Shown piece by piece: positions 20,398-36,420 of a DNA stretch of 64,000 nt. This DNA comes from a virus. The notes below the pieces were generated by a model. The model saw only the letters and a program-made list of their open reading frames with translations. It was not told the origin of the DNA and did not search any database. The stretch lies in IMG/VR virus record IMGVR_UViG_3300034122_002094; one strand, written 5' to 3'. A program made the translations under genes and the position numbers. The first letter of the stretch is position 1; every line of letters begins with the position of its first letter.

Positions 20398-23300
20398 TCA
20401 GCGCTCACACGAGCCGCCCGCACAGGCAGCCTCTTGCTGTCTCGTCGTGGTGTCCGTTGACTCGATGATCTTTGTGAGATCCAGGTCAGTCGGAACCGCT
20501 GCGAGCAGTTCGTGGTATCGCTCTTCGCTGATCGATTGGAAGGGGGCTTGGTCGTAGTTGCCGCCGTCATATGGCAAAACACTCAAGCCAGCATAATCAT
20601 TCCGCTCGCTCCACAAGCGATCGCACAGGTAGTCCCACTCATCTTCCTTGACAAAGATGGTGGCGGATACGTTGTGGTGGTGAGGGCCAGACACATGGCC
20701 TGGTGTCACCCACTCACGCTGGTACAGCATCACCCTGTCGATGAAGGTCGCCAGTGTCTCATCAGCACGAGTTGTTGCACCCTCGGGCGCACGACAGGGG
20801 ATCGACAGCACTGTCTTCGTGAGTGGGCTGCCCTTCTCAGGCTCGCACATGTGCGGAGCGTTGGCTAGCAGATACTGGCAAAGCGGTGTCACGTTCTCCA
20901 GGCGTACAGTGCGGATGAAGAACTTGTCGTACCACGCATGGATGCCGCTGGAGCATCCGAGCACACAGGATGTCGATCCAGCAGGCTTCACACAGGTCAG
21001 ACGAGCGGCAGGCTTGATGCCCAGGACAGCGGCCCACTCACGGTTGACCTCGATCGCATACTCGGCGCCCTTGCGCAGCCATGCTGGATCGATCTTGTTG
21101 CCAGCGATTCCGGTGATGCCCAGGCCGAGAAGCGCCTCTTCCTTGCAGTTCTTCTCCCACTCGGGGCGCAGATAGTGGAAGTCTGTCCAGGACGCCTGGA
21201 TGGTGCCGATGATGGTCGCGGCCTTGACGATCTCCATGAAGTGATCGTAGCTCTTGATGGACTCAGCATTGATCTCGCACAAGTTGCAGAACTGCATGTC
21301 CCTCAGGGCGATCTCCACGCAGTTCGACACGTTGAGGCCGCCTGTCCAGAACGTGTGCGTGCTGTTGTCGACAGTGATGTCCCAGACCTCTTGCAGTCCC
21401 AGATCTTCACGGCTGACCACCTGCGCCTGCTTGTTGCCATGACCAAGTGTCGTCACATCGATCTTCTGGTTCTTGTAGTCCTGGATGAAGCCGATCTGGC
21501 GAGCGAACTCTGCCCGACCAACAGTGACATTCAGGTCATAAGACTCGCGCGACGTGTACTCACCATTGGCGTGAGTGATCGTGCTGGGCTTGTTCGTCGT
21601 GTAGTACGACGGGATCCCCAGCGAGCTGAGGGCAACCTGGACGTCGCTGATCATCTGGAACGAGGTCGCCTTGAGCGTGATGCGATTCCTCACAACGGAA
21701 CCGTTTGCGGAGAACAGCCCACGAAGCAAAGATCTGAGCTTGTTCGTCTCCAAGCCAAGGAACTGGCCGAGGCAGCGGTCGTAGGTGTGAGGCAGATGCT
21801 CAGCGGTGATCTCGGGACAGATAACCTGATAGCCGCCCTTGTCGGCATACGCCGGGTGAATCCGGCCAATCAGAGGAGCCACCTCGCTGGCGAAGTAAGA
21901 CTCATCATCCTGGCCGATGAACAACGCGATCTTGTTCTTGCTCGTCTTGTGGACCGTGCCATCGCCCAGCAGCAAGCCAGCCATGACCCAGTTGCGGTCA
22001 TGCTCAACATTACGCATCCGAGTCGGGCCAACCACGAGATCGATCGCCTCGACCTCGTCGACAGGAGTCTTGATGCCGCTGGACAGGACCTTGTGGTCTG
22101 CGGTGCCAAGGAAGTGGCCCTGTGTCGTGTTGTACCTGAATGTGTCCTTGATGCCGTTCGACCACTTGGCCGTGACTGTCGTCCAGCCCTCAGCGGACCA
22201 GATCTTGTCACCGACCTGGATCTCTCCCATCGTCGTCAGGCCGTTGGGCGTGAGCAGGGTAGCATCGGCAGTCAGACATGGATTGACACCAAAGTCAAGA
22301 TCATCGAGCCAGACAAAGCCAGGCTCGCCACGCCCCGAGCGACGACAGAAGTCGTAGACCCACTCAAACTCTGCACGAGTTGTCGTCGGGCGATGGAGCA
22401 CCACGGAATTGTTGGAGCGAGCGCGCTGCGGCTCGATGAGGTCAGAGAAGACCTTGCCGGTGCTGAGAGCATACTGGCGCTGACCCTCTGCGCTGCTCCA
22501 GCTCTGATCTTCCAGCACGACAGTGGCGATCTTCTTGCTGCCTGTGCAGTCGTCGTACTCGATCTTCCAGAGCCCACCCTTGGGCAGCTTTGTGTACGAC
22601 AGCTCGGTGAAGGCCCACTGGCTCTTGGCCATGAGCATCGGGATCGAGCTCTTGTCGAAGATGCAGATCGTGGCCGAGCGACGGATGCCGCCCGAGACAA
22701 CACAGTCGGCGAGGTGCATGATGATGTCATACGCCTCGATGTCCATGAGCTTGCGCCCAACGGCTGACTGAAGGATCTTCTCGACGCGCTCAAGGGCCTT
22801 GCGCAGACCATCAGGGCCTGGAGCCAGACCGCCCGAGGTCTTGAGCGGTGTGCCCTTCTTGCGGATGTCGGAATAGTTGAAGACGGGGCGACGCTTGCCA
22901 TAGTAGTAGCTTTGGATAAGCTCGTCGAGCGCCTGACACCAGCCGATCGCATCGTCCTGGATCATGAAGCGCTGCTCGATGATCTTGCCGTCCTCATCAA
23001 GCCTCGGCCCCTGAAGCACAGGGAGCTGAGAGATATGGCGATTCTGGACTGAGAAGCCTACGCCGCTGCCCTTGATCGACAAAAACAAAATCTCTCTGAA
23101 AGCTCGGGTGTCTTTCAGAGAGAGGAATGCGCAATTATACAGAGAGTTTGGTGACTTGCGAATTGCGTCACCAGCAAACTGCATCGATCGCATCGACGGC
23201 AGCACAGCGTGATCGCGGACGTGGTCGTATGCCTTTGCAAGGTCCGCCTGATACCGTGCAGCATCAGGATGTGCGCTGATCGTGTCTGCGGTCTTCTCAA

Positions 23301-23424
23301 GGTTCATCGACTCGTTGCGACCCACCAGCTCTCGCCAGTTCTCGCGACGGAGCTGCTCCGGCAGATACCGGTAATACTTGTCATATGTCACTACTTCAGA
23401 GAGGAGCTTCAATCCGCTGTCCAT
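20398..23424 (-). CDS. nrdJ: Class II (B12-dependent, monomeric RTPR-like) ribonucleotide reductase, intein-containing
   Basis: Motifs PSMR, YNCAF, GSGVGFS, GGIRRSA, NP[intein]CVE, CNL, TCVKPAGS and C-terminal ACAGGSCE. Start placed at MDSGLK. Confidence 0.92.
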   Translation of the reverse strand: MDSGLKLLSEVVTYDKYYRYLPEQLRRENWRELVGRNESMNLEKTADTISAHPDAARYQADLAKAYDHVRDHAVLPSMRSMQFAGDAIRKSPNSLYNCAFLSLKDTRAFREILFLSIKGSGVGFSVQNRHISQLPVLQGPRLDEDGKIIEQRFMIQDDAIGWCQALDELIQSYYYGKRRPVFNYSDIRKKGTPLKTSGGLAPGPDGLRKALERVEKILQSAVGRKLMDIEAYDIIMHLADCVVSGGIRRSATICIFDKSSIPMLMAKSQWAFTELSYTKLPKGGLWKIEYDDCTGSKKIATVVLEDQSWSSAEGQRQYALSTGKVFSDLIEPQRARSNNSVVLHRPTTTRAEFEWVYDFCRRSGRGEPGFVWLDDLDFGVNPCLTADATLLTPNGLTTMGEIQVGDKIWSAEGWTTVTAKWSNGIKDTFRYNTTQGHFLGTADHKVLSSGIKTPVDEVEAIDLVVGPTRMRNVEHDRNWVMAGLLLGDGTVHKTSKNKIALFIGQDDESYFASEVAPLIGRIHPAYADKGGYQVICPEITAEHLPHTYDRCLGQFLGLETNKLRSLLRGLFSANGSVVRNRITLKATSFQMISDVQVALSSLGIPSYYTTNKPSTITHANGEYTSRESYDLNVTVGRAEFARQIGFIQDYKNQKIDVTTLGHGNKQAQVVSREDLGLQEVWDITVDNSTHTFWTGGLNVSNCVEIALRDMQFCNLCEINAESIKSYDHFMEIVKAATIIGTIQASWTDFHYLRPEWEKNCKEEALLGLGITGIAGNKIDPAWLRKGAEYAIEVNREWAAVLGIKPAARLTCVKPAGSTSCVLGCSSGIHAWYDKFFIRTVRLENVTPLCQYLLANAPHMCEPEKGSPLTKTVLSIPCRAPEGATTRADETLATFIDRVMLYQREWVTPGHVSGPHHHNVSATIFVKEDEWDYLCDRLWSERNDYAGLSVLPYDGGNYDQAPFQSISEERYHELLAAVPTDLDLTKIIESTDTTTRQQEAACAGGSCER
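21322..22278 (-). mobile_element. Intein with LAGLIDADG homing endonuclease in RNR (319 aa)
   Basis: Begins CLTADAT and ends WDITVD...GLNVSN|C; internal MAGLLLGDG and LRGLFSANG motifs. Confidence 0.92.
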
Positions 23425-23558
23425 GTATAACTCTTCAGAATCTTTGGTTAAAAATGGCGCACAAGACAAAGCCTGTGCGCCATTTGTTGTCAGCCTGTGG
23501 GCGGGAGAGGTTCTGACGACTCTTGGATGCGAGCCGTTCAGTTCAGAAGCAAGATAGG

Positions 23559-23885
23559 TTATCTGTCGGAATCGTCTGAGTCGACAGTGTCGAGCTCTTC
23601 TGTTGGCCACGTCTCGGGCCAGATGAGCGCCGCCTGGGAGTCGTGAGCTCTCCCGTTGAGGGCCTTCGGGAAGTTGAAGCGCGAGTCAGCTCCGCGACAA
23701 GGCACGAGGTTCACCTTGTACTTATCGTGCTCTTGCTTGCAGTGAGGGCACTTCGCCGTGACATAGCGATAGACTCTGCCCTGGCGGTAGGTGACGATGT
23801 ACCATGATGCTGGCGACATCACCTTCGCACATTCTGGGTTCTTGCAGCGCAGCTTGAACGGCTCATAGCCTGTCTCGTTGATCAT
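23559..23885 (-). CDS. Zinc-ribbon protein
   Basis: CKNPEC...CPHC. Confidence 0.65.
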   Translation of the reverse strand: MINETGYEPFKLRCKNPECAKVMSPASWYIVTYRQGRVYRYVTAKCPHCKQEHDKYKVNLVPCRGADSRFNFPKALNGRAHDSQAALIWPETWPTEELDTVDSDDSDR

Positions 23886-24172
23886 CTTTGCTGGCCTCCT
23901 GCGGCCTTGACGTTGCGGGCCGTCACGCTCTCGCGGATTCGGACCCAGTTATGGAAGCGACTGTATCGATCATTGTACTTTGCGAACAGGACGTGGATGA
24001 GGCGGATCAGCATGAGGTACTTCTCTCGATCCTCTCGCTCACAGTACGCCATGCTGGTGAAGAGCCCGCATGGCGTGTTACATCTTAGACAACATGTCGA
24101 GATCTTTGTCAACCGATTCTTGCGGCGATAGCACTTTAGCTGTGGCAGCTTTTCGACCCCGAGGGCGTCCAT
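23882..24172 (-). CDS. Small Cys-rich hypothetical protein
   Basis: AAGGAG SD before ATG 24172; CCLRCNTPC motif; overlaps the 3' end of the resolvase gene. Confidence 0.55.
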   Translation of the reverse strand: MDALGVEKLPQLKCYRRKNRLTKISTCCLRCNTPCGLFTSMAYCEREDREKYLMLIRLIHVLFAKYNDRYSRFHNWVRIRESVTARNVKAAGGQQR

Positions 24173-25040
24173 GCTCTCCTTCAGCAGCAGCGAGTTCAGC
24201 CTTGATGGCTTTGATGACCTTGTTATGCTCGACGGTCTCATTCTCATGCCTCGTTGTCGGAGAGATCAAGATGGAGTCGATGACGCTGTGGACCGCTCGC
24301 TCTCGTGGCAGCGGACGGGCGGCGTTACCCTTCTGCCACTGGAAGGCTATGTCGTCAGAGAAGGGCTGATCGAGCCAGGTGGACATCTCCAGCAGATGCT
24401 TCGACAGATAGCCGTTGATGATCAGCAGCGCCAGTGCGTCCGCCTCGTCATCAGTCTGGATCTTGAGCTTGTCACACAATCCATTGTAGTGGTAATTCAG
24501 GCCCTCGATCACCTCCTGCTTGGACTTGGCTACCTGCTTGCCAGTGACTTCGTCCTTCTTTGAGCTCTGGCCAGTGGCGACCTTCTTGACCTGGCTCGTA
24601 TAGACGGGGACGATCAAGGTGTCGAGTGGCTGCGTTCCGTAGAGCATCGCGTTACACATGGCGAGGGCTTTGAAAGACGCTGGGTTGTCCATGACGGTCA
24701 CAGCCTCATACACGATAGAGAAAGCGGCCTGCTTGCTTGTCAGCTCGGCCATCTCAACGCTGAGGCGGCGCACCTTCTCTCTTGCCGCCATCGACTTGCT
24801 CAGATCGACGCTTGCCGTCTTGATCGCAGACGGATCTTCCCAGCCGCCAGCGTCGATCGCAATGAAGTCAGCCAGAGTACACCATGCCATTCCCGTTGAC
24901 GTAAGCGAGAGGTCGAGGCCGACCATGAGGTCTCCACCTGTCTTGGCCTGCGCCTCTTCTCGGGCCTTGAGAAGCCATCTGGCTGTCTCGACCATGTGCC
25001 GTCTATCAAAATAGACGCTCGTCGCTTTCTTCTTCGCCAT
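24078..25040 (-). CDS. RuvC-like Holliday junction resolvase
   Basis: Acidic RNase H-fold motifs VGLDLSLTSTG, IVYE, SQVKK and DDEADA. Confidence 0.8.
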   Translation of the reverse strand: MAKKKATSVYFDRRHMVETARWLLKAREEAQAKTGGDLMVGLDLSLTSTGMAWCTLADFIAIDAGGWEDPSAIKTASVDLSKSMAAREKVRRLSVEMAELTSKQAAFSIVYEAVTVMDNPASFKALAMCNAMLYGTQPLDTLIVPVYTSQVKKVATGQSSKKDEVTGKQVAKSKQEVIEGLNYHYNGLCDKLKIQTDDEADALALLIINGYLSKHLLEMSTWLDQPFSDDIAFQWQKGNAARPLPRERAVHSVIDSILISPTTRHENETVEHNKVIKAIKAELAAAEGEHGRPRGRKAATAKVLSPQESVDKDLDMLSKM

Positions 25041-26890
25041 CAGCTCATCCGCAGGGTCGCCTTGCCGCCGCGCTTCTCGACAAGGATCTGCCGGGTGTCG
25101 CTCTTACGGTCAAAGTAGTCCTCAAGGGACTTGTTGTGGAACACGAGGAGGCGAGTGTCTGTCGCGTCCTCGAACAGGAAGTCTACTAGCGCGCGCGACC
25201 CTGTGCTGTCAAGAGAAGCGAGCGCCTCATCGTCGATGTACAGGCCGATCTGGAACACCCCGTTCAAAGCGAGCGTGACTGCCTTGTCGATGCGCGCCGC
25301 CTCGCCACCAGAGAAGACACCATACGGGTAGTAGACTCCCTGCTTGCTCGTATTGTGGAACAGCAAGTCGAGTTTGTCGCCATCAAGCACGGCCTTGACG
25401 GTCAGGTCGGTGTCCATCTTCTCGAAGTAGCGCTGGATCTGCTGCTCAAGAGATGAGATGAATCCGAACAGGATCTCCTGCTTGGTCTTGCGCAGGATCT
25501 TCAGCGTCGTCTTGAGCGCTGACATCTCGTCTTCGAGCTGGCTGATCTTGCGCGCCATGCCATCGAACTTCTTGAGCTGACCATCGACGATGAGGCGCTC
25601 CTTCTCAAGCTGTGCCTGAAGCGAATCTGAACTCTCGGCGCGATGAAGCTCCAGCATCTTCTCAGCGTTCGAGAGCTGCGTCTGCGCCATCTGGCAAGCA
25701 TGGACCTCTCGCTCGTAGGCCTGGAGCTTCAGGGCCAGAGAGCTGCGCAAGCCATTGAGGCGATCGATCTCCTTCTCGTCTGGTGCCTCGGGCATGACGA
25801 AGTCGAGGATCTGTTGGCGCAAATCGTCTGCACCAGCCTTGACGAGCGCCTGTCGGATACAGACCTGCTCGCGCTCACTGGAGAATGCGTGCAAGAGCTT
25901 CGTGTTGACCTCTGTGCGGTGGCTTCCACAGTATGCGCACTCTCCACCACCCACCAGCAAGACGTTGTCGATCTTGTCCTGGAGATCAGAGAGGAGCTGC
26001 TCGATCCCCTTCTGCTCGTCCAGGTTCTTCTCCAGACGCTTCTCAAGCAGCGCTTTCTTCGGGGCCTGCTGCGAATACTCCCTCTGAGACCGCCGCAGAG
26101 CCTCCAGGCTCGCTTCGATCTCGGCGAGCTGCTGTGGGTATGCCACAGGGTCTGGCGCCGGTCTGAAGGCCTGCCTGAGGCTCTCAATGAGGGCTGTCGA
26201 CTGGGCCAGCTTGGCTGCTTTCTGCGCCTCGAATTGTGATAACTGATTCTCAAGAGCGGCGATGCGCTGGTCCTGCTGCGCGATGCCTTGCTCAAGGGTG
26301 TTGGCGAGCGATACAAGGCTCTCGCACTCGGTCTTGCGACGCATCCCCTCTGCCTTGAGATCGTCGATCATTCGGTCGTAGGGCGTCAGGTCCAGCACCT
26401 CTGTCAGCACCTCCAGCTTCTTGGCCGGGGTAAGCTCACAGAAGCTCGCGCGCTTGGATGCGGCGTAGCCAGCGAGCATGAAGGCCTGACGGCTGAAACC
26501 GAGCGTCTGCTCAATGAGCTTGTCGTTACCCTTGTGGAGCGAGACGTCCTCGCCATCGATCTTGACGATAGGCTCGCTGTTGCGACGACCCGGCACCTTG
26601 CGGCCACGGTCGATCTCGATGCGGCGGCCCGCGTGGGTGAAGGTCAAGACCACCCTGACGTGATCGCCATTGGGTCCGATGACACCATCAGAGAGCAGGC
26701 CCTCGCGTGGCGTCGTGCCGAAGAGGCACCAGATGATCGCGTGCAGCAGGGCGCTCTTGCCAGCACCATTGGAGCTTGAGCCCTGGTCATCATGATTGAT
26801 GCCAAAGACCGCATACTTGACGTGGTTGAAAGTCAAAAACTCCTCCCCCAAAGGGAAGAAGTTCTCGATCTTGATTGACTCAAGCTTCAC
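25040..26890 (-). CDS. Rad50/SbcC (gp46-like) ATPase
   Basis: Walker A NGAGKS, coiled coils with a CAYC hook, signature FSGGE and Walker B YIDDE. Confidence 0.92.
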   Translation of the reverse strand: MKLESIKIENFFPLGEEFLTFNHVKYAVFGINHDDQGSSSNGAGKSALLHAIIWCLFGTTPREGLLSDGVIGPNGDHVRVVLTFTHAGRRIEIDRGRKVPGRRNSEPIVKIDGEDVSLHKGNDKLIEQTLGFSRQAFMLAGYAASKRASFCELTPAKKLEVLTEVLDLTPYDRMIDDLKAEGMRRKTECESLVSLANTLEQGIAQQDQRIAALENQLSQFEAQKAAKLAQSTALIESLRQAFRPAPDPVAYPQQLAEIEASLEALRRSQREYSQQAPKKALLEKRLEKNLDEQKGIEQLLSDLQDKIDNVLLVGGGECAYCGSHRTEVNTKLLHAFSSEREQVCIRQALVKAGADDLRQQILDFVMPEAPDEKEIDRLNGLRSSLALKLQAYEREVHACQMAQTQLSNAEKMLELHRAESSDSLQAQLEKERLIVDGQLKKFDGMARKISQLEDEMSALKTTLKILRKTKQEILFGFISSLEQQIQRYFEKMDTDLTVKAVLDGDKLDLLFHNTSKQGVYYPYGVFSGGEAARIDKAVTLALNGVFQIGLYIDDEALASLDSTGSRALVDFLFEDATDTRLLVFHNKSLEDYFDRKSDTRQILVEKRGGKATLRMS

Positions 26891-27555
26891 TTACGGGGCT
26901 CCGTCGCACCCATCTGTCCGAAGTAGCGAGAGCCAAGACTCGGATCGCCATAGGCCTTCTCCGCTGGCTCTGCGAGCATTGACATCACGATCTGGCAGAT
27001 TGGGATGTGATCGAGGAACGTGACCATCTCAGGCCCAAGGTTCTTGATCTCCAAAGTGATCTGGCCCTGGAAGCCTGGATCCAAGAAGCCCGCTGTGGCA
27101 TGGACCACGACGAACACGCGCCCGATGGAGGACTTGCCTGAGACATGCCCCGATAGACCGCGCCCGATCTCGATTCGCTCCAGCGTGGTTGCCAGCACAC
27201 AGTCTCCAGGTCGGAGACGGAGCAGCTTCGCGCCTGACACTCCAACACAGTCATCGTGCGTATAGCGTGGCAGGTTGCGCACACCCGGACCCATGATGGT
27301 CTCGCCAGCGTTCTTCTTGAGGCGCTGGACACCGTTCGACAGATCAAGACGCAGGTCGACCGAAGCTGGCTGGATGGCGCTTGGTTCGGGGAGCGGGTCG
27401 AGCTTGAGGTGGAGAGCTTCGCGGCGCCTCTTGCTGACCTCAAGCTCGACCGAGTTCATGGACGCGGCCTCCTCGAAGGTTGGCAGGGAGAGTGCTGGCG
27501 AGACACGCGGGTCGATACCGAGGAGCTGGCGGATGTAGAAGTCGGGGAGGATCAT
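26887..27555 (-). CDS. dcd: dCTP deaminase
   Basis: Motifs IQPASVDLRL, GKSSIGR, HATAGFLDPGFQGQITLE and ICQ. Confidence 0.92.
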   Translation of the reverse strand: MILPDFYIRQLLGIDPRVSPALSLPTFEEAASMNSVELEVSKRRREALHLKLDPLPEPSAIQPASVDLRLDLSNGVQRLKKNAGETIMGPGVRNLPRYTHDDCVGVSGAKLLRLRPGDCVLATTLERIEIGRGLSGHVSGKSSIGRVFVVVHATAGFLDPGFQGQITLEIKNLGPEMVTFLDHIPICQIVMSMLAEPAEKAYGDPSLGSRYFGQMGATEPRK

Positions 27556-28490
27556 CGGTTGTCACCTGAGCCGTTGAGGACGTTGCGCTCCTTGCGATCC
27601 TGGAGCTTCTGGATGTTATCAGCCATGATTCGAGAGAGGGGGATGCCGAGCTCATGGGCCAGCGCAGCGCAGTACCATGTGACGTCACCGAGCTCCTTCG
27701 CGAGCTTGTTACGACCCTCAGCGGTCAACTCACCACCCTCGTCGCGGATGATCTTCTTGAGCACGCCAGCAACCTCGCCAGACTCGGAGCACAGGCCCAG
27801 CACAGCGTACTCTACGTTGCTGCCACGGTTGGGATAGATCGCTGTCTCACCGGCGAGCTGCTGGTAGCGGTTCACCGACATGTCGGGTTGCGAAACGAGC
27901 TGAGTCCCGAAGTCGAAGTTGAGGAGCGTCCCGTAGTTGAATTTGAGCGAAGTATCAAGCTCGTATCGGGTGCTGAGACGAGAGATCGAGGACATGTCGC
28001 GAGCTGGGATGGTCCGCTCCCCGTCAGAAGCCTCGACACGGTAGAGGTCGATCTTGTCTGCCTTGATGTGAGGTGGGATGGCGCCTCGACCAACATGGTA
28101 GTCGTTGTTCGGAATCGTTGCGCCTGTGTTCGTGAACACCCAGTAGTCGTCAACCTGGAAGGCGACGATGGTGCCATTGGCGATCATCGTCTCGAATGAC
28201 AGGTGGAGGATCTTGTTGTGCTTCAGGATCTGCTGGTTGCGGATGAAGTGCAGCAGAGAGATCACGTTGCTGCCGTTCGGTCCGAACACGACACCCATGT
28301 CACCGTGGCGCTCGATGGGGATCTTGACGCGGAGGCACCGGGGGTCCTCGGTGATCTTGACGGGCGTCTTCGGGAGGTCTGCGAAGCCACCAAAGGCGCA
28401 GACCATGTCCTCGACGAACTCGGCGAGGTCCTTCGTGGCCTGCTCGCGCTCCTCGGGGGTGTAATGGAACTTCTTCTGCTTGTCGATCAT
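27552..28490 (-). CDS. KhpA-like KH domain fused to a MazG-like NTP pyrophosphohydrolase
   Basis: N-terminal DMGVVFGPNGSNVISL; C-terminal LGLCSESGEVA..KK..RD...KELGDVTWY...NIQKL. Confidence 0.8.
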   Translation of the reverse strand: MIDKQKKFHYTPEEREQATKDLAEFVEDMVCAFGGFADLPKTPVKITEDPRCLRVKIPIERHGDMGVVFGPNGSNVISLLHFIRNQQILKHNKILHLSFETMIANGTIVAFQVDDYWVFTNTGATIPNNDYHVGRGAIPPHIKADKIDLYRVEASDGERTIPARDMSSISRLSTRYELDTSLKFNYGTLLNFDFGTQLVSQPDMSVNRYQQLAGETAIYPNRGSNVEYAVLGLCSESGEVAGVLKKIIRDEGGELTAEGRNKLAKELGDVTWYCAALAHELGIPLSRIMADNIQKLQDRKERNVLNGSGDNR

Positions 28491-29575
28491 TTTGTTTTTC
28501 CTATGATTGTCTTGACCATGCCCTCGTGCTTCTTGAGGGGATCGTCGGGGTCGCACGCCTCAACGTGCTTGTCAATGGCGAGCAGAGCGTTCTGCTCGGG
28601 GCTGAGCGTCGGAGAGTATGCAATCAGGCTCTCCTCTGTCTCCACAACTTGAGATGGCATCATGGCGATGTGGTAGCTATACAGCTCCAGGGCGATGAGC
28701 TGATCGATGAGATCGGTCTTGAGTTCGTGGTTCGGTACGTCCCGGACCTTCAGTGTGATTCGGCTGGAGTCATCTGGTAATTCGAGCTGTGACAGCTCGT
28801 CGTATCGCCTTGTGATAATTGGGTAATCCAGCACACACTCATGAAATTCACAGGTCTTGTCTACGACAGACATATGGCCTTTTTTGTACTCTTGACCGCC
28901 CTTGAGGGTGAAGGGAGCACCGCAGTAATAGACCTGCTTGCCAGCGACATCGAAGCATTGGTGGCGATGGAAGTCGCCACCAATGATCGTGTCATACTGT
29001 GAAACCTCTCGGGCTGTCAACTCGATTCCCCTGTCATTTGGGAACCCGTTGTCGAGCAGGGCGTTGCGCACAGCCGCATGAAAGAAGAGCAGCTTCGGGA
29101 TCTCGTACCCTGGGATCGGCTCTGCCATCGCATCGAGCATGGCCTTGTGATCGTCCATGTACGGCACCGCACGGATCGCGACCATCTTACCACAGTCCTC
29201 CAGCATGAGAGTCTGGGGATGGTTGACGCACACCAGCGCCTCAAGACCCATCCTGGAGAGTCCACCGACCACAGAGAAGACATTCTTGCTGTCGGTGATA
29301 CAGTGGTTGCCCTCAAGCAGCACGACGCGACCACCACGCTCTCCGTGGCGCCTGACGAGCTTTGCAAAGTGCATGACCGCACCAAAGACATAGCTGTCGA
29401 GCAGGTTGTCATCTGTCAGATCGCCTGCGCACACGATCAGCTCGCCGTAGGCCGCTGAATCAAACAGATCTGTCAGAAACTGCTCTTGTGCTGCGAGCAG
29501 GTCGCTCTTCCCGTCGTTACGTCTTCTGAAGTATTTGTTATTGTTGTCTAAATGCAGATCTGAGAAGACTTTCAT
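28487..29575 (-). CDS. Mre11/SbcD (gp47-like) nuclease
   Basis: Motifs FSDLH, AGDL, EGNH, FFH, GDFH and YYCGAP; lies close to the Rad50 gene. Confidence 0.9.
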   Translation of the reverse strand: MKVFSDLHLDNNNKYFRRRNDGKSDLLAAQEQFLTDLFDSAAYGELIVCAGDLTDDNLLDSYVFGAVMHFAKLVRRHGERGGRVVLLEGNHCITDSKNVFSVVGGLSRMGLEALVCVNHPQTLMLEDCGKMVAIRAVPYMDDHKAMLDAMAEPIPGYEIPKLLFFHAAVRNALLDNGFPNDRGIELTAREVSQYDTIIGGDFHRHQCFDVAGKQVYYCGAPFTLKGGQEYKKGHMSVVDKTCEFHECVLDYPIITRRYDELSQLELPDDSSRITLKVRDVPNHELKTDLIDQLIALELYSYHIAMMPSQVVETEESLIAYSPTLSPEQNALLAIDKHVEACDPDDPLKKHEGMVKTIIGKTK

Positions 29576-29640: not shown

Positions 29641-30864
29641 TCACTCGAACGAGTTATCGTCCAGGGACGGCTTCTCGCGCTTCATACGATTGCGGAGGGC
29701 AGAACCATCGGCTGGCTGGACCTCGGGCGGGTTCTGCTGAGCCGCGCGCTCGGCAGCCTTCGCAGCCAGGTTGGCTGCCGCCTTGTTGAAGTCCACGCCC
29801 TTGGTCGGAGCAGGGGCGTAGCGATCGGCATCCGGGTCATAGCCAGGATCCTCGTCATCCCGATCAGGCGGCGACTGACCACCGTCAGGGCCAGACATCA
29901 CCCAGGCTTTCTCAGCCAGGTAGGCCGACAGCATGTCCGCAGGCATCGGCGCCAGCACCGCATTGTAGTCGTCCGCCGTGGCACCCTCGGGCACGCTCGG
30001 CTTGTGGAGGTTCATGAGACGCTCCATCATGACGTCGTAGAAGCGGTCAGACACGGTCCAGCCAGCCTTGGAGTGATCGACGTAGTTGCAGCCCCACTCC
30101 AGCTTGTCGTTGCCCTGGTACTCGCCGGTCTTGGTCAGGGTGAGCTCCAGCAGTACCTTGTCAGGGTACTCCAGCGGCTCAAGATCATTGTCCTTGTGCT
30201 CACGGCGGAAGGACGCGGTCTTCTTCTTGTGGGCAGACACGAGGCGCTTGAGGTTCGTCTGCGCACCTGTCAGGTAGGTGATGCCCTGCTTGGCAGCCTC
30301 GACGAAGTCCTTGGGGAGCTTGTCGATGGGCGTCTTCGGCGTCTCGCCAGCCATGATGGACACGAAGTCATCCATCAGCGCCATGCGCTCATCGCTGGGC
30401 GTCATCATCATCTCATCGCCCTCGCCCTCGATCGTGAAGAACGGCGTCACGTCGATGACCTGAGCGACGCCCTTGATCTTCGACTTCTCCTCGCCGATCT
30501 GCTTGCGGCGGGCGTCCAGCGGATGGTTGACGTACTCCTCCCAGGACGTGCCAGTGAAGCCCTCAGCGCGCCAGGCAGCCCAGACAGGCTTGCAGCGCGG
30601 GCAGTCGTCAAACGACAGGCTGGTCTTGAACTTGGTGCCCACATCCACAGCGTCGCCCGTCAGGCAGACATGGAAGGGCTTGTGGTGGACCTGAAGGAAG
30701 CGCACAGGATCATGGATCTGGGGATCCGTCGAGGGGAGGTGCATCAGCAGGAGGGTCTGGCCAGCTCGCAGATCGATGCTGCGAGAGTTGTCTCCCGTCA
30801 GCTCGTCAGCGCGCTCCTGAGCGGTCTTGGCCTTTCCACGGTTGATGTTCATACGGCTTTTCAT
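29641..30864 (-). CDS. Putative gp32-like ssDNA-binding protein
   Basis: H..C...CPRC zinc-type ligands, acidic low-complexity tail ending DDNSFE, own terminator, replication context. Confidence 0.55.
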   Translation of the reverse strand: MKSRMNINRGKAKTAQERADELTGDNSRSIDLRAGQTLLLMHLPSTDPQIHDPVRFLQVHHKPFHVCLTGDAVDVGTKFKTSLSFDDCPRCKPVWAAWRAEGFTGTSWEEYVNHPLDARRKQIGEEKSKIKGVAQVIDVTPFFTIEGEGDEMMMTPSDERMALMDDFVSIMAGETPKTPIDKLPKDFVEAAKQGITYLTGAQTNLKRLVSAHKKKTASFRREHKDNDLEPLEYPDKVLLELTLTKTGEYQGNDKLEWGCNYVDHSKAGWTVSDRFYDVMMERLMNLHKPSVPEGATADDYNAVLAPMPADMLSAYLAEKAWVMSGPDGGQSPPDRDDEDPGYDPDADRYAPAPTKGVDFNKAAANLAAKAAERAAQQNPPEVQPADGSALRNRMKREKPSLDDNSFE

Positions 30865-31674: not shown

Positions 31675-31985
31675 GGCGTGGGCTCCAGCTCGAAGCGAAT
31701 ACCATAGGCGTTTCTTGACCTCGGAGCATTGGGCATGATGTATGGCACAGACGATCCCGTCCAGCCAGCGATGGTTAGTCGCGCCTGCACGAGGCTGACC
31801 ATCCTGGCATCGAACAGGGCGTATGTCTCTCCCTCGATGTCGAAGTCAAAGTTAATTCTACCTGGCTCATACAACCAGGTCAGCTTCTTGTTGATCTTGA
31901 GGTCGAGCTCGTCGAGGAGGATGGTCTCCTCGGCGGTCTCAGCAGAGCTGTACGCTGTGACCAGCGCTGTGGGTGTTGTGATCAT
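31671..31985 (-). CDS. Hypothetical protein
   Basis: 104-aa ORF overlapping the dnaE stop. Confidence 0.6.
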   Translation of the reverse strand: MITTPTALVTAYSSAETAEETILLDELDLKINKKLTWLYEPGRINFDFDIEGETYALFDARMVSLVQARLTIAGWTGSSVPYIMPNAPRSRNAYGIRFELEPTP

Positions 31986-34900
31986 CTGGCGACAATCCGG
32001 CAGTAGTCAGTGGGTTTATTGAGCGCGATGTAGCTCCTTCCATTGAAGGACTCCTTGATTCCGCGCAGCTCGATGAGATCTCCTTGAGAGGGGCGCCGTC
32101 TGGTGCGGTCGAGTGCAGGATTATCCCAGAACTCATTCCAGCACTTGACAACGTAACGCTCTGATCCGTCTTCGATGACGAGCTGCGCCCAGTTCTTGCC
32201 AGCGTTTCGGCCAGACTTGTACTTGTAATAAGACACCTGCTTGACCTCGCCGCCGATGAACACGAGCTTGCCGTCATCGATCTTGTTGAACTGAGCCTCA
32301 GTGAACGTCTGGATGTTCTCGTGGTCGAAACCAGCGATCTCCTTCCATCTGCCGACCTGGCAGTTGAGCGTCTCGTTGCGGAGCTTCGCCCAGTAGAACT
32401 GAGAAGCAGTATGGTCGAAGTTGCCCTTGCCGTCAACGAAAGTCTTGAGAAACTCGGGCGGCAGCTCGTCTGCGACCTTCTTCTTGTTCAAGACCCTCAT
32501 GTACTCTCGATAGCGTTTCATCGCCTCGATCGGTGTGTACTCAGGCGCAAAGAAGCCAGCTCCGATGAGAGCAGTCATGACGCGCGAGTTCATGACCTGA
32601 CCCGTCGACTCCTGGACTGTCACACCGTCGATCACCTCCTTCTTGCGGATGAGCGTCGACATGAAGCTGTCCATGTCAGGGAAGCTGTTGATCGTGCCGT
32701 TGTTGGTGATGAGCGCGGCGGCCTTGTCGCCGACGCCCTTGATGGCGCTGATCTTCCAGAAGACCTGATTGCCAGCTCCAGCAGGCTTGAAGTCCTGTGA
32801 GAAGCCATGCACGGTCGGGAACAGGAACTCGATACCCTCTTCCTCTGCATACCGCTTGAGCTCGTACACGTTGTTCGGATGCTTGAGATCATCCTTCGCA
32901 AACCGCATCTTGGCTGCCCAGAAGTAGAGCGGGTAGCGCGACTTGATCCAGGCCTGATAGAACGAGGTCAGGGTGTACGCAACGCTGTGGCTGTTGTGAG
33001 AGACGATGCCGTTGGCGATGAAGTTGTGCTCCTCCTCGACCATCTCGATGTCATACGTCATCTCCTCGCCAGCAGGCTCGATCGAGACGATCTTGCTCGT
33101 GACTGTCGGCAGTCCCTGACTCCATGCCTTCTTGCGCTCGCCCTTCTGGTAGTCGAGGCTCTTGTGGCATGAGTTGCAGAGGTAGCGCACGTTCCCGATC
33201 GCGTGGAACTTGAGGAAGTCTCCACCACACTCCTCGAAGGTGTCCATGTGGGCTACCTCGAATCGTGCATCATCGCGCTCGATGAGATTACATGACTCAC
33301 ACTTGCCCTGAGCCCGCTCGATACAGGCCTCCCGAGCTTCTTTCAGAGCCTTGGTTCTGCCATCAAGGAAAGCGGGATTCGCTGCGCCCGTCCTGTCGTA
33401 ACCGGCCTCTGTCATCTCACCCTGCCACGCGCGGCCCTTGTGATAGCCAGATGGCAGCGCCCTCTCAATGTACTGGCTGGTCGCCTTCTCTTTGACGCCC
33501 ATCACGAGCAGCTCGTCGCCAACCTCCAGATCGTCGATACACACATACCCGGTGGAAGCGAGCAGACGGTGGTTGTATGTGCCGGTGATGCTCATGCCGT
33601 TCTGAAGCGTGACCTTGATGACCGGCTGAACGCCGTTCTGCGTGATCGCCTTGATGTGGCCGAGGCGGATGCGGCCATCAGCGCTCATCATCCGGATCTT
33701 CTGCCGACCAGCGAGGATCTTCTCGCCCCAGTGTGTGCGTGAGCGCCCGTTCGGACCTTGCTTGAGCGTCTCCTGATAGAGCTCCTCGATCGTCATCTCG
33801 ACAGTGTCACAGAATCTGTTGCGACCACCTCGATAGACAATCGTATTACCGATCAAGCACTTGTTGAAGCTGTACGATGCAAACTCAACGATCTGAGACC
33901 ACATCTTGTTCGTGACGTCTTCCGTATAGCCCCGCTTGCGCGAGCCGGTCTTGAAGTGGGCCTCCCACTTTGCCATCTCCTCTGGCTTCTTCTTGCCGCA
34001 GGCCTTGCGCAGCTTCTCGGCCTCCTCGCCGGTGAAGCCCGCCATGACCTGTGACAGCTTCATCATCTGCTCCTGATAGATCATCAGGCCATGACTCTCC
34101 GACAGCACCTCACTGATCGAGGCGTGATCATCGGGACGCTTCTCGCGACCATGCTTGATGTCGATGAAGAGCTTGTCGGTTCCAGCCTGCATGGGGCCTG
34201 GGCGCACGAGCGCGACAGCAGCGACGAGCTCCTCGAAGGAATCCACCGCCAGCGGGCGAAGGAAGCGGCGCTGGCTCCATGTGCCGAACTGGAAGATCGG
34301 GTGGGTCTGCACGTTACGGAACGTCAGCAGAGCCTGCTTGTCCTGGAGGTTGATCTCCTCGACGCCAGGGATCGTGATACCCTCGTAGTCCTTGAGCATC
34401 TGCTTCGCAGCGGTCACAACGTCCACCGCCTCGATGACCAGCAGATCGAGCTTTGGGCGGCCAGCATCGTCGACAGCGTCCATCTCATACTGCGTGACGT
34501 AGCCTTCCAGCGTGCTGTTGTAGAGCACTGGCAGCTCGCTCATGGCGTCACCAAGACAGATCACGATGCCCGCAGCGTGCATCCCGTTGGAGGTGATCGA
34601 CTCCAGCAGCGGCATCACCTTGGTCATGAAGAAGCGGCTGTGCTTGGCGTAGAACTCCATGAAGCGATCGTTGGTGAGCATCTCATCGAGCTCATCCTGG
34701 CCGCGCGAGGTCTGCGTCGTATGCACGTCGAGGATCTGATTCAGGAAGTAGGGATCGTAGGGGACCTCTTCTCCATCATTGTCCGTGATCGTGTACGCCG
34801 CAGCAGCAGCCAGAGCCTTCACAGCCGACTTGACCTTCATGCGGTTGTAGGTGCCGATGTTGAGCAAGCGCTGACGCCCATACACGCTGGCGAGGTAGCG

Positions 34901-36205
34901 GTGGACCTCTCGACGAGCGATGTCCGAGAAGTCAAGATCGATGTCCGGGAGGTCCGTTCGTGCGCTCGACAGGAATCGAGAGAAGGACAGTCCGTGGCGC
35001 AGCGGATCGCATTGGGTAATGTTGGTCAGATAGTTGAAGATAGAGCCTGCGCCCGATCCGCGACCCACACCACGATCCAGACCCACGCGATCGATGTGCG
35101 CGCAGATGTCGTCGATGATGTAGAAGTAGGGCAGGAACTTCTTGGACACGATGAGCGGGATCTCCTCGTTCAAGAGCTGATCCATGTACTCCTTGAGCGT
35201 GTGCTTGTTGGCATACTTATCACCAGCTTTCTCAAGGAGATATGAGAACTTCTTGTCGAGATCTGGGTCTTGCGCGATCTGACGAAGAGTCGTGCCTGGC
35301 TTGACGGTCGGGTCGAGCTTCTGGCGCCAGCCGTCAGCCAGCCGCTGCTCCATATAAGCCAGCAGGTCAGGGACGGGAGGCTCGGGCAGCTTGTAGTCGC
35401 CCACGACGAAGAAGTCAGTCACCATGTCGAACAGGCGCTTCATGCCGAAATCGAACTTCTGGAGAGCTGGTTCGCCAAGCCGTGACTCAGCCAGCGCCTG
35501 AGTTGGCAAAGAGTAGACGCCGCCGTTATTGCAGATCGGCTTGTCCTCCTTCATCAGCGACATGAGGGTGCGAGATGCCTCGGCGGCCTCTGTGGTGGGG
35601 CCGGTGCAGTTGAAGCTGTACACGACGTCATAGGGCATCGTGCCACGGTCGAGCAGCGCCTCGATCTCTTCTGGGTTCTCCAGCGGATTGCAGCCGATGA
35701 AGAAGCGCGTCTCGAACATGCTGTGGAGCTGGCTGACGATGCCTGAGAACTTGCCCTTGGAGCCCTCAAAGACCGCCGTAGAGAGCTTCCCGCCGCCGTT
35801 GTAGGGCAACACACAGGCCACATCCTTGCAAGCGCCCAGAAGGGCCTCCATCGTGACGCGAGGGCGGAAGTAGAACAGCCCCTCGCGGTCCTGAGAGCGG
35901 TTGTTGAGCTTGACCAGACGCTGATAGCCGTCGTCGTTCAGAGCGAACAGCAGCAGGCGGGCGATGGGCTTGTTGTTCTCATCTCGCTCATCTGACTCGT
36001 GGAGGTAGACGTCCATGCCGAGCAGGGGCTTGATACCAGCCTCACGACAAGCCTTGACGAGACGGGGCGCACCGGCAAGCGTGGTACGATCGCAGACGCC
36101 GAGAGCAGGGTAGCCAAGCTTCTTGGCTGCCTTCGCCCAGTCCTTGATGTTTGCCGTGCCGAAGCCGCGAGAGTATGCAGTGTAGTTCTGAAGCGAGTAC
36201 ATCAT
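31982..36205 (-). CDS. dnaE: DNA polymerase III alpha (family C), intein-containing
   Basis: PHP-like N-terminus; motifs GRGSGAGS, PDIDLDF, HAAG, KLDLL, YQEQ and FNK[intein]SH; C-terminal OB fold. Confidence 0.95.
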   Translation of the reverse strand: MMYSLQNYTAYSRGFGTANIKDWAKAAKKLGYPALGVCDRTTLAGAPRLVKACREAGIKPLLGMDVYLHESDERDENNKPIARLLLFALNDDGYQRLVKLNNRSQDREGLFYFRPRVTMEALLGACKDVACVLPYNGGGKLSTAVFEGSKGKFSGIVSQLHSMFETRFFIGCNPLENPEEIEALLDRGTMPYDVVYSFNCTGPTTEAAEASRTLMSLMKEDKPICNNGGVYSLPTQALAESRLGEPALQKFDFGMKRLFDMVTDFFVVGDYKLPEPPVPDLLAYMEQRLADGWRQKLDPTVKPGTTLRQIAQDPDLDKKFSYLLEKAGDKYANKHTLKEYMDQLLNEEIPLIVSKKFLPYFYIIDDICAHIDRVGLDRGVGRGSGAGSIFNYLTNITQCDPLRHGLSFSRFLSSARTDLPDIDLDFSDIARREVHRYLASVYGRQRLLNIGTYNRMKVKSAVKALAAAAAYTITDNDGEEVPYDPYFLNQILDVHTTQTSRGQDELDEMLTNDRFMEFYAKHSRFFMTKVMPLLESITSNGMHAAGIVICLGDAMSELPVLYNSTLEGYVTQYEMDAVDDAGRPKLDLLVIEAVDVVTAAKQMLKDYEGITIPGVEEINLQDKQALLTFRNVQTHPIFQFGTWSQRRFLRPLAVDSFEELVAAVALVRPGPMQAGTDKLFIDIKHGREKRPDDHASISEVLSESHGLMIYQEQMMKLSQVMAGFTGEEAEKLRKACGKKKPEEMAKWEAHFKTGSRKRGYTEDVTNKMWSQIVEFASYSFNKCLIGNTIVYRGGRNRFCDTVEMTIEELYQETLKQGPNGRSRTHWGEKILAGRQKIRMMSADGRIRLGHIKAITQNGVQPVIKVTLQNGMSITGTYNHRLLASTGYVCIDDLEVGDELLVMGVKEKATSQYIERALPSGYHKGRAWQGEMTEAGYDRTGAANPAFLDGRTKALKEAREACIERAQGKCESCNLIERDDARFEVAHMDTFEECGGDFLKFHAIGNVRYLCNSCHKSLDYQKGERKKAWSQGLPTVTSKIVSIEPAGEEMTYDIEMVEEEHNFIANGIVSHNSHSVAYTLTSFYQAWIKSRYPLYFWAAKMRFAKDDLKHPNNVYELKRYAEEEGIEFLFPTVHGFSQDFKPAGAGNQVFWKISAIKGVGDKAAALITNNGTINSFPDMDSFMSTLIRKKEVIDGVTVQESTGQVMNSRVMTALIGAGFFAPEYTPIEAMKRYREYMRVLNKKKVADELPPEFLKTFVDGKGNFDHTASQFYWAKLRNETLNCQVGRWKEIAGFDHENIQTFTEAQFNKIDDGKLVFIGGEVKQVSYYKYKSGRNAGKNWAQLVIEDGSERYVVKCWNEFWDNPALDRTRRRPSQGDLIELRGIKESFNGRSYIALNKPTDYCRIVAR
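32993..33859 (-). mobile_element. Intein with HNH endonuclease in DnaE (289 aa)
   Basis: Begins CLIGNT, has block B GTYNHRL, and ends TYDIEM...HNFIANGIVSHN|S. Internal CESC...EVAH...N...LCNSCH. Confidence 0.92.
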
Positions 36206-36420
36206 GTTGTTTTCTTTCCGTATTTGGTTTCTAACCGTGCAGCTTGGAGCTTGAACATGTTGCACACTCTCTGGTGTGCGAGGTCACATGTTTGACACTC
36301 GGGATGCGCTTGGTCGAACAGCCCATCAGCAGGCTCGCAGCTTCTGATGGAGTCGGTGGTTTGGAGAGTAGATTCGTCGGCTGTTGAAGGCTTCGACGAA
36401 CTCGTCTTCTGAGCAGTCAT
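36202..36420 (-). CDS. Possible small Cys-rich protein (start uncertain)
   Basis: C...ECQTC.....C pattern; stop overlaps the dnaE start. Confidence 0.35.
   Translation of the reverse strand: MTAQKTSSSKPSTADESTLQTTDSIRSCEPADGLFDQAHPECQTCDLAHQRVCNMFKLQAARLETKYGKKTT

What the first reader, a model, noticed from the sequence alone, without database searches (positions are those of the whole stretch)
27552..28490. KhpA-like RNA-binding domain fused to a MazG-like pyrophosphatase
Seen: one ORF whose N-terminal ~100 aa follow the KhpA pattern (helix-strand-strand-DMGxVxGxxG-helix-strand), then a ~110-aa unknown linker, then an intact MazG-like ExxE...ExxD domain. Known: KhpA is a bacterial RNA chaperone that partners KhpB/Jag, and phage MazG-like enzymes hydrolyse (d)NTPs or alarmones. 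I do not recognise this fusion. Inference: it may be an RNA-regulated or RNA-localised nucleotide hydrolase, or a host KhpA/B hijacker linked to counter-defence.
Basis: partly seen in the sequence, partly recalled or inferred. Interest (0 to 1): 0.75.

Follow-up and report, generated by a model that had tools for sequence, protein, structure and literature searches.

The report
Phage MazG fused to KH-like domain
An uncultured phage encodes a real but rare fusion of an ordinary MazG nucleotide pyrophosphatase with a small, unannotated phage domain predicted to fold like a KH (KhpA-type) nucleic-acid-binding domain; in a related phage the two halves are separate adjacent genes.

Summary
The ORF is real (window 27552-28490, minus strand, 312 aa). 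It overlaps by ATGA with an SbcD/Mre11-like gene upstream and a dCTP deaminase gene downstream.

- **MazG half:** residues 199-312 are a MazG-type NTP pyrophosphohydrolase with all four acidic metal ligands.
- **Limits of the KH call:** sequence homology to KH is not demonstrable (hhalign probability below 1%). The second G of GxxG is not conserved in the family.
- **The "110-aa linker":** about 55 aa are conserved domain extension and about 40 aa are a variable linker.
- **Origin:** only three fused clusters exist. One relative has the N-domain and MazG as separate adjacent genes, and most relatives have no MazG nearby.

The likeliest reading is a lineage-specific fusion of neighbouring replication-module genes. 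It would place a dNTP pyrophosphatase on a KH-like module that binds nucleic acid or a partner protein. Hijacking of host KhpA/B and counter-defence are unsupported. Interest is moderate.

The parts
27552..28490 (-). Whole ORF, 312 aa plus stop (P0001): KH-like domain fused to MazG
   Evidence: The identical protein is on 11 contigs. Orthologues P0002 (89%) and P0003 (49%) have the same architecture.
28179..28463 (-). Residues 10-104: predicted type II KH-like core (alpha-beta-beta-alpha-alpha-beta)
   Evidence: AlphaFold2 model, pLDDT mostly 80-92. Matches: Era, uS3 and KhpB KH domains; KhpA clusters at TM 0.75; ESM Atlas model also matches KhpA. No sequence-level KH match.
28212..28295 (-). 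Residues 66-93: the most conserved block of the N-domain family. It holds the G70-P71-N72-G73 turn, helix alpha2, and R84, Q86, Q87, H91, N92, K93.
   Evidence: 7 of the 10 invariant family columns lie here. In a KH domain this segment (GXXG loop, alpha2, variable loop) lines the nucleic-acid cleft (PMC11261784); mapping it onto this family is inference.
28020..28178 (-). Residues 105-157: conserved extension of the N-domain family (extra strands and short helices; invariant D130, G136, H141)
   Evidence: Alignments A2/A4. Model pLDDT 74-89. dN/dS 0.05 against P0002.
27897..28019 (-). Residues 158-198: variable linker
   Evidence: In-frame deletions of 6 aa in P0002 and 10 aa in P0003. dN/dS 0.27 (close pair) and about 1.1 (distant pair). 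Low pLDDT.
27555..27896 (-). Residues 199-312: MazG-type all-alpha NTP pyrophosphohydrolase domain
   Evidence: PF03819. phrog_229 E 2.2e-38. 50-55% identity to annotated Streptomyces phage MazG genes. A family profile hits YpjD-type MazG (5ie9, 2gta) and DCTPP1 in the PDB.
27774..27785 (-). E236-S-G-E239, first metal-binding EXXE motif
   Evidence: invariant in the three fused proteins
27684..27695 (-). E266-L-G-D269, second metal-binding EXXD motif
28487..29575 (-). Upstream SbcD/Mre11-like metallophosphoesterase gene; its stop overlaps the start of the fusion ORF (ATGA)
   Evidence: phrog_100 E 6.6e-21; overlap shown. This gene precedes the N-domain gene in the window and in all nine related contexts examined.
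26887..27555 (-). Downstream dCTP deaminase gene; its start overlaps the stop of the fusion ORF (ATGA)
   Evidence: phrog_1663 E 6.3e-32; PF22769 DCD; overlap shown
25040..26890 (-). SbcC/Rad50-like ATPase gene (context)
   Evidence: phrog_77 E 1e-57
24078..25040 (-). RuvC-like resolvase gene (context)
   Evidence: phrog_159 E 4.1e-13

Best explanation
This is a two-domain protein of a phage DNA replication, recombination and nucleotide-metabolism module. It most likely arose in one lineage by fusion of two neighbouring genes.

The C-terminal half is a MazG-type all-alpha (d)NTP pyrophosphohydrolase that converts (d)NTP to (d)NMP plus PPi. Its gene is overlapped by a dCTP deaminase gene, and in the split relative MazG sits next to a dCMP deaminase. 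On that basis I infer that it works on pyrimidine dNTPs (dUTP and/or dCTP). It would feed dUMP production and keep unwanted dNTPs out of phage DNA, functionally like a dUTPase/dCTPase.

The N-terminal half belongs to a rare phage-specific family of about 150 aa with a divergent type II KH-like fold. Its best-conserved residues lie where KH domains hold single-stranded nucleic acid. I infer that it binds ssDNA or RNA, or a replisome or recombination partner, and so places the pyrophosphatase where phage DNA is being made.

Shown here: the ORF, the MazG identity and its intact ligands, the rarity of the fusion, the existence of the split form, purifying selection on both halves, and the predicted KH-like fold. 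Inferred: substrate, ligand and tethering.
For: - MazG identity and intact EXXE...EXXD motifs.
- Conservation is concentrated on the GP turn, alpha2 and the following loop. This is the KH binding cleft according to PMC11261784.
- An exhaustive HMMER search of 1.84 billion representatives found only standalone relatives of the N-domain. They occupy the same slot after the SbcD-like gene.
- Split form in L013/L014: N-domain gene (196 aa), a terminator-like hairpin, then a separate 155-aa MazG gene that is 40% identical to residues 194-312.
- Both halves are under purifying selection: dN/dS 0.05-0.17, linker 0.27.
- The ATGA overlap with SbcD upstream and DCD downstream is kept in the 49%-identical orthologue.
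- Phage MazG-like enzymes often carry N-terminal fusions (PMC8342488; diverse N-termini).
- A purified cyanophage MazG prefers dGTP and dCTP and does not hydrolyse (p)ppGpp (PMC6850273).
Against: - No sequence-level link to KH: no Pfam hit in any of the 10 members, no PDB sequence hit, hhalign against KhpA at probability 0.8%.
- The GxxG second Gly is not conserved in the family (GPNK in most, GPGL in P0003).
- The N-domain core is not basic: pI 6.3-9.5, and net charge -2 in this protein.
- The whole module is syntenic across this lineage, so gene position alone does not prove functional linkage.
- Trees of the N-domain and of MazG do not resolve whether the fused MazG descends from the L013-type neighbour. 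The fused MazG is closer (55-61% identity) to MazGs of unrelated contigs than to L013's (40%).
- Substrate specificity cannot be read from the sequence.
Confidence: 0.5

Rival explanations
1. The KH-like N-domain is a protein-protein interaction or assembly module, not a nucleic-acid binder. KhpA-KhpB dimerisation, DnaA domain I and DciA use KH-type folds this way. It would dock the MazG enzyme onto SbcCD, the deaminase or the replisome.
Against: The strongest conservation lies on the canonical KH ligand cleft. A DnaC/IstB-like loader and a DnaB-like helicase are already encoded nearby, so a DciA-like role is not needed. No partner has been identified.
Confidence: 0.25
2. The resemblance to KH is only a generic alpha+beta arrangement. 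The N-domain would then be a new family of unrelated function, for example a small enzyme or ligand sensor using the invariant R84, Q86, Q87, H91, N92, D130 and H141, that regulates or complements MazG.
Against: Two independent predictors and four searches put KH domains first. Whole KhpA superposes at TM 0.75, rmsd 2.6-2.7. The Gly-Pro turn sits exactly between the two helices where GXXG lies. The best hhalign alignment, though not significant, is in the structurally expected register.
Confidence: 0.15
3. Counter-defence or host takeover. The KH domain would mimic KhpA to capture host KhpB/Jag or host RNAs, while MazG destroys alarmones or signalling nucleotides.
For: The KhpA-like fold. MazG enzymes have been proposed to lower (p)ppGpp; the proposal is cited in PMC6850273.
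Against: The family is not derived from KhpA by any sequence measure. It was found only in phage-like contigs and not in 185,579 species genomes. The gene sits in the replication/recombination/nucleotide core, not in an accessory block. Most relatives have the domain without MazG nearby. The tested cyanophage MazG does not act on (p)ppGpp (PMC6850273).
Confidence: 0.07
4. The fusion is an artefact: a sequencing or assembly error has removed a stop codon between two genes.
For: A split arrangement exists in a relative.
Against: The identical 312-aa product was found on 11 contigs; the 5 places shown come from 5 samples and from different assemblers. Orthologues at 89% and 49% identity keep one frame through in-frame indels. 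The linker is coding-like, with dN/dS 0.27.
Confidence: 0.01

Closest known systems
Phage MazG-like nucleotide pyrophosphohydrolases (PHROG 229; Pfam PF03819), e.g. Streptomyces phage MazG genes, cyanophage MazG, S-2L MazZ
   Same: The C-terminal 114 aa match at E 2e-38 and are 50-55% identical to annotated phage MazGs. They have the same EXXE...EXXD ligands and the same ...GSGDNR end. The gene lies in a replication/nucleotide module. N-terminal fusions are frequent in MazZ-1 (PMC8342488).
   Different: None of the 96 near-length relatives or the 8 longer ones carries a Pfam KH domain, and only the two orthologues P0002 and P0003 share this N-domain. Substrate is unknown; no PurZ or DatZ lies next to it, so it is not a MazZ context.
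Single-domain bacterial MazG YpjD (PDB 2gta, 5ie9) and dCTP pyrophosphatase DCTPP1/RS21-C6 (2oie, 7mu5)
   Same: These are the nearest solved structures by profile search (E 9e-7 to 5e-3). They share the all-alpha NTP-PPase fold and the metal-ligand motifs.
   Different: Those proteins are about 100-170 aa and have no KH-like N-domain. Identity is low, so specificity cannot be transferred.
KhpA (Pfam PF13083 KH_KhpA-B), bacterial and viral
   Same: Predicted fold: whole KhpA models superpose on residues 15-100/116 at TM 0.75, rmsd 2.6-2.7. The motif order is the same: helix, two strands, D-M-G-x-V-x-G-x-x-G, helix, strand.
   Different: There is no significant sequence similarity. The GxxG is degenerate in the family. 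There is a conserved 50-aa extension with invariant D/G/H. It is never a free 75-80-aa protein. No KhpB partner is known. Its context is DNA metabolism.
Type II KH domains of Era / ERAL1 and ribosomal protein uS3 (Pfam PF07650 KH_2)
   Different: Those domains bind rRNA within ribosome biogenesis or the ribosome. There is no sequence relation, and the partner domains differ.
T4 gp56 dCTPase/dUTPase working with dCMP deaminase (from my own knowledge of T4 nucleotide metabolism)
   Same: A functional analogy only: a phage dNTP pyrophosphatase encoded alongside a cytosine-nucleotide deaminase, producing dUMP/dCMP and excluding unwanted dNTPs.
   Different: Homology was not tested here, and there is no evidence of modified bases in this phage. 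The analogy is inference.

Membership tests
MazG / all-alpha NTP pyrophosphohydrolase (PF03819, phrog_229) | Profile match above the curated threshold | tested here: met
   PF03819 27.5 bits against a cut-off of 22, residues 230-301. phrog_229 E 2.2e-38, residues 199-312.
MazG / all-alpha NTP pyrophosphohydrolase (PF03819, phrog_229) | Four acidic metal ligands, EXXE ... EXXD | tested here: met
   E236, E239, E266 and D269 are present and invariant in P0001-P0003. They align with the same motifs of YpjD-type MazG.
MazG / all-alpha NTP pyrophosphohydrolase (PF03819, phrog_229) | (d)NTP -> (d)NMP + PPi activity, in a dimer or tetramer | not testable with these tools
   Needs an enzyme assay. The full-length AF2 model was too poor to judge (pLDDT 43).
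KH domain, type II (PF07650 KH_2 / PF13083 KH_KhpA-B) | alpha-beta-beta-alpha-alpha-beta topology | tested here: met
   AF2 model: H12-34, E45-48, E52-58, H62-69, H71-85, E94-102, pLDDT 80-92. This is a prediction, not an experimental structure.
KH domain, type II (PF07650 KH_2 / PF13083 KH_KhpA-B) | Structural superposition on known KH domains, standing above other folds | tested here: met
KH domain, type II (PF07650 KH_2 / PF13083 KH_KhpA-B) | GXXG loop between alpha1 and alpha2 | tested here: inconclusive
   G70-P-N-G73 lies at the right place in P0001 and P0002. Only G70-P71 is invariant in the family; position 73 is Lys in 7 of the 10 aligned members and Leu in P0003. Atypical KH domains with a modified GXXG exist, e.g. 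RbfA (PMC11261784).
KH domain, type II (PF07650 KH_2 / PF13083 KH_KhpA-B) | Sequence-profile match to a KH family | tested here: not met
   No KH Pfam hit at E<=1 in any of 10 members. The profile gives no PDB hit at E<=10. hhalign of A4 against 30 KhpA sequences: probability 0.8%, P 0.068.
KH domain, type II (PF07650 KH_2 / PF13083 KH_KhpA-B) | Binds single-stranded RNA or DNA | not testable with these tools
   Needs EMSA or anisotropy. The core is not basic, which neither supports nor excludes binding.
KhpA proper (partner of KhpB/Jag) | Free-standing single KH protein of about 75-80 aa matching PF13083 | tested here: not met
   The domain is about 150 aa with a conserved extension. It is fused to MazG or carries a long tail. 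There is no PF13083 match.
KhpA proper (partner of KhpB/Jag) | A cognate KhpB/Jag partner | not testable with these tools
   No whole genome is held for the window and the host is unknown.
DciA / DnaA domain I-like KH-fold replication modules | Structural match and a role with the replicative helicase | tested here: inconclusive

The most novel reading that the evidence does not exclude
The N-domain family is a previously unrecognised KH-fold cofactor that binds ssDNA or RNA and works with phage Mre11-Rad50 (SbcCD) recombination and replication. It is encoded between the sbcD-like and sbcC-like genes throughout an uncultured PolIII-alpha phage lineage. In one branch it has captured a dNTP pyrophosphatase, so that dNTP sanitation or dUMP supply is physically coupled to recombination-dependent DNA synthesis.
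Probability: 0.12. Interest if true: 0.65.

Novelty: new variant of a known kind. Interest (0 to 1): 0.4.

Why it matters
MazG-like enzymes are among the commonest phage nucleotide-metabolism genes, yet what directs them to substrates or sites is mostly unknown. Here one is fused to a KH-like module, and a natural split form exists in a relative. That pairing links the two proteins functionally and gives a tractable case for testing whether phage dNTP pyrophosphatases are localised to nucleic acid or to the replisome.

The result also defines a small unannotated phage protein family. It has a KH-like fold, the invariant motifs GP...R.QQ...HN and D...G...PH, and a fixed position next to the SbcD-like gene. 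No database currently names it.

The practical impact is modest. The family is very rare and its function remains inferred.

Tried and rejected
- **Complex prediction**, SbcD-like protein (alignment A5) against the N-domain (A4): verdict 'no answer', score 0.18 against a mark of 0.32. This is not evidence either way.
- **More family members:** degenerate-pattern scans of viral contigs, metagenome contigs and genome contigs found none. tblastn of the N-domain against 50,697 phage records also found nothing at E<=1.
- **Read-level check of the junction:** I relied on independent contigs instead.
- **Whole genome:** none is held. I could not look for thymidylate synthase, dUTPase or a KhpB-like gene elsewhere in the phage.
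- **Hypothesis that MazG co-occurs strictly with dCTP deaminase (DCD), and MazG-less relatives with dCMP deaminase:** rejected. The split-form contig L013 has MazG together with dCMP deaminase.
- **Idea that the N-termini of the 192-aa MazG proteins (P0012 group) are distant relatives of the N-domain:** hhalign probability 0.4%, rejected.
- **Trees** of the N-domain and of MazG domains: too poorly resolved to order the fusion, split and loss events.
- **Small ORFs** near standalone N-domain genes, scanned for hidden MazG: none found.
- **Atlas look-up** of the standalone member P0100: no model and no usable hit.
- **Earlier notes of this scan:** nothing on this gene.
- **Unpublished genome G026:** it appeared in the table, but none of its sequence was used.

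Full report
**1. What is in the sequence**

On the minus strand, 27552-28490 is one open frame of 312 codons. Its ATG lies in an ATGA overlap with the stop of the upstream gene (28487-29575). Its TGA lies in an ATGA overlap with the start of the downstream gene (26887-27555). A longer GTG-started version (to 28556) is unlikely, because both orthologues start at the same Met with the same MI.K.KKF.YTPE N-terminus.

The neighbourhood is a phage replication, recombination and nucleotide module. In order it contains:
- an IstB/DnaC-like loader;
- a DnaB-like helicase;
- a primase;
- a PolIII-alpha-type polymerase that carries an insertion with HNH-endonuclease matches, absent from a relative's polymerase;
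- three small ORFs and a 407-aa protein;
- an SbcD/Mre11-like gene;
- this ORF;
- a dCTP deaminase;
- an SbcC/Rad50-like gene;
- a RuvC-like gene;
- a ribonucleotide reductase.

No cultured phage is close: SbcC is at most 24% identical to anything in 50,697 phage records.

**2. The C-terminal half is an ordinary, intact MazG**

Residues 199-312 match PF03819 above its threshold and phrog_229 at E 2.2e-38. They are 50-55% identical to annotated MazG genes of Streptomyces phages. Both metal-binding motifs, E236-x-x-E239 and E266-x-x-D269, are present and invariant in the orthologues.

A profile of 20 relatives finds the YpjD-type single-domain MazGs (5ie9, 2gta) and dCTP pyrophosphatase 1 as the nearest solved structures.

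**3. The N-terminal half is a rare family of its own with a KH-like predicted fold**

Residues 1-198 match nothing in Pfam, PHROGs, NCBIfam or the PDB by sequence.

An exhaustive phmmer search of 1.84 billion representatives with residues 1-200 found nine proteins at E<=0.001. Seven are genuine relatives: the fused orthologue P0003 and six proteins of 182-296 aa without MazG. The other two hits, P0102 and P0104, matched only short stretches of long repetitive proteins. A profile search of 5.8 billion clusters added one more member.

The family shares ten invariant residues: G70, P71, R84, Q86, Q87, H91, N92, D130, G136 and H141. The conserved region runs to about residue 157.

With three sequences AlphaFold2 failed (pLDDT 43). 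With ten family members it gave pLDDT 80.8 and pTM 0.76, with the order helix, strand, strand, helix, [G70-P-N-G73], helix, strand, plus extra strands. This is the type II KH topology, with the GXXG position between alpha1 and alpha2 as described in PMC11261784.

KH domains head every fold search:

| Search | Best KH matches |
|---|---|
| Foldseek, PDB | Era E 4.5e-4, probability 1.00; then uS3 |
| Atlas fold search | a viral KhpA/KhpB cluster and a bacterial KhpA cluster, TM 0.75 by target, rmsd 2.6-2.7 |
| ESM Atlas's own model of this protein | KhpA / KH_2 models |

**4. Limits of the KH assignment**

I built a KhpA alignment from 30 genomes. hhalign against the family profile gave probability 0.8% (P 0.068). 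The only aligned stretch is in the structurally expected register, with G70-P-N-K opposite G-K-Q-G.

The second Gly of GxxG is Lys in 7 of the 10 aligned members and Leu in P0003. The domain core is near neutral.

I therefore file it as "KH-like fold, homology unproven", and not as a KhpA.

**5. The fusion is genuine, rare, and has a split counterpart**

- **Genuine.** The identical protein was found on 11 contigs; the 5 places shown come from 5 samples across three data sources. Fused orthologues at 89% and 49% identity have the same neighbours and the same 4-nt gene overlaps.
- **Under selection.** Against the 89% orthologue, dN/dS is 0.17 (KH core), 0.05 (extension), 0.27 (linker) and 0.11 (MazG).
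- **Rare.** Among MazG relatives of similar or greater length, none has a KH Pfam domain. N-termini are highly diverse (HNH-like, HTH, deoxyribosyltransferase-like, membrane). [quoted passage not shown]
- **Fixed position.** All the family members whose contigs I examined (six standalone clusters and the three fused ones) follow the SbcD-like gene in the same syntenic module.
- **Split form.** In contigs L013/L014 the 196-aa N-domain gene is followed by a strong terminator-like hairpin. A separate 155-aa MazG gene comes next, 40% identical to residues 194-312, and then a dCMP deaminase.
- **MazG-less relatives.** In the other five standalone contexts no MazG lies in the roughly 5-8 kb of flanking sequence examined.
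- **Tail.** Most standalone members end in a conserved basic tail (..[SA]KLR..), which the fused proteins lack.

The fused forms are monophyletic (support 99/98). Neither the N-domain tree nor the MazG tree resolves the order of events.

**6. Mechanism**

Shown: an intact MazG catalytic core on the same chain as a conserved KH-like domain, in a replication/recombination/nucleotide module, with 4-nt overlaps to SbcD and to a dCTP deaminase.

Inferred:
- The enzyme hydrolyses dNTPs, most plausibly dUTP/dCTP, given the adjacent cytosine-nucleotide deaminase in both the fused and the split lineages.
- The only tested cyanophage MazG preferred dGTP/dCTP and did not touch (p)ppGpp (PMC6850273).
- The N-domain binds single-stranded nucleic acid or a partner protein through the conserved GP turn, alpha2 and following loop. 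KH domains bind ssRNA or ssDNA in this cleft (PMC11261784). This would localise the enzyme.

My odds:

| Reading | Probability |
|---|---|
| Tethered dNTP pyrophosphatase as stated | 0.5 |
| Same, but the N-domain is purely a protein-docking module | 0.25 |
| The fold resemblance is misleading and the N-domain has some other function | 0.15 |
| Counter-defence or KhpB hijack | 0.07 |
| Artefact | 0.01 |

**7. Verdict**

The functional ideas (RNA regulation, KhpA/B hijacking, counter-defence) have no support. The genomic context points to DNA metabolism instead.

This is a new variant of a known kind, a phage MazG with one more N-terminal partner. As a by-product it defines a small unannotated KH-like phage family. 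Interest is moderate (0.4).

Noticed in passing
window 31982-36265 (-): The PolIII-alpha-type DNA polymerase gene is 1427 aa here but 1118 aa in the 89%-related contig L006. The extra part matches HNH endonuclease families (residues about 958-1084), which suggests an intein with a homing endonuclease. Two relatives' polymerases carry PF14890 Intein_splicing.
   Followed up: partly
window 20398-23610 (-): The 1070-aa ribonucleotide reductase matches the RNR profile in two stretches. Between them is a weak match (E 5.6e-4, no significant stretch) to a large-terminase PHROG (residues 446-494). This hints at an inserted element such as an intein.
   Followed up: no
L013:8591-8646 (related contig): Between the standalone N-domain gene and the separate MazG gene lies a perfect GC-rich hairpin followed by a T-run (GGAACGGG-TTAAGT-CCCGTTCC-TTTTTT). 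It looks like an intrinsic terminator separating the two genes that are fused in the window.
   Followed up: partly
P0097, P0098, P0100, P0101, P0103, P0105 (standalone relatives): These six standalone N-domain proteins end in a conserved basic tail (..[SA]KLR.K/T..) after a variable, probably disordered spacer; P0099 ends in a basic tail without the KLR motif. The tail is absent from the MazG-fused forms. It may be a docking peptide of unknown partner.
   Followed up: partly
window 29641-30861 (-): The 407-aa protein just upstream of the SbcD-like gene has no PHROG hit. Proteins of about 430-457 aa at the same position in relatives show weak RecA_N matches. It may be a divergent recombinase or ATPase.
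   Followed up: no
L010 / L013 (SRR35487351) and L011 / L014 (JGI 3300046028): The fused-type phage (this window's type) and the split-type phage (P0097 plus separate MazG) occur in the same two samples. The two architectures therefore coexist in one community.
   Followed up: no
P0004, P0006, P0008/P0015, P0010, P0017 (MazG relatives): Close relatives of this MazG domain carry very different N-terminal parts. By eye these look like an HNH-like, an HTH-like, a nucleoside-deoxyribosyltransferase-like and a hydrophobic, possibly membrane-spanning segment; P0017 has precomputed LAGLIDADG Pfam hits (PF00961, PF14528). This MazG clade appears to be a promiscuous fusion partner.
   Followed up: partly
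window 38708-39541 and 37347-38711 (-): An IstB/DnaC-like ATPase gene (PF01695, E 2.8e-11) overlaps by 4 nt the start of a DnaB-like helicase gene (PF03796). This looks like a phage helicase plus loader pair.
   Followed up: no
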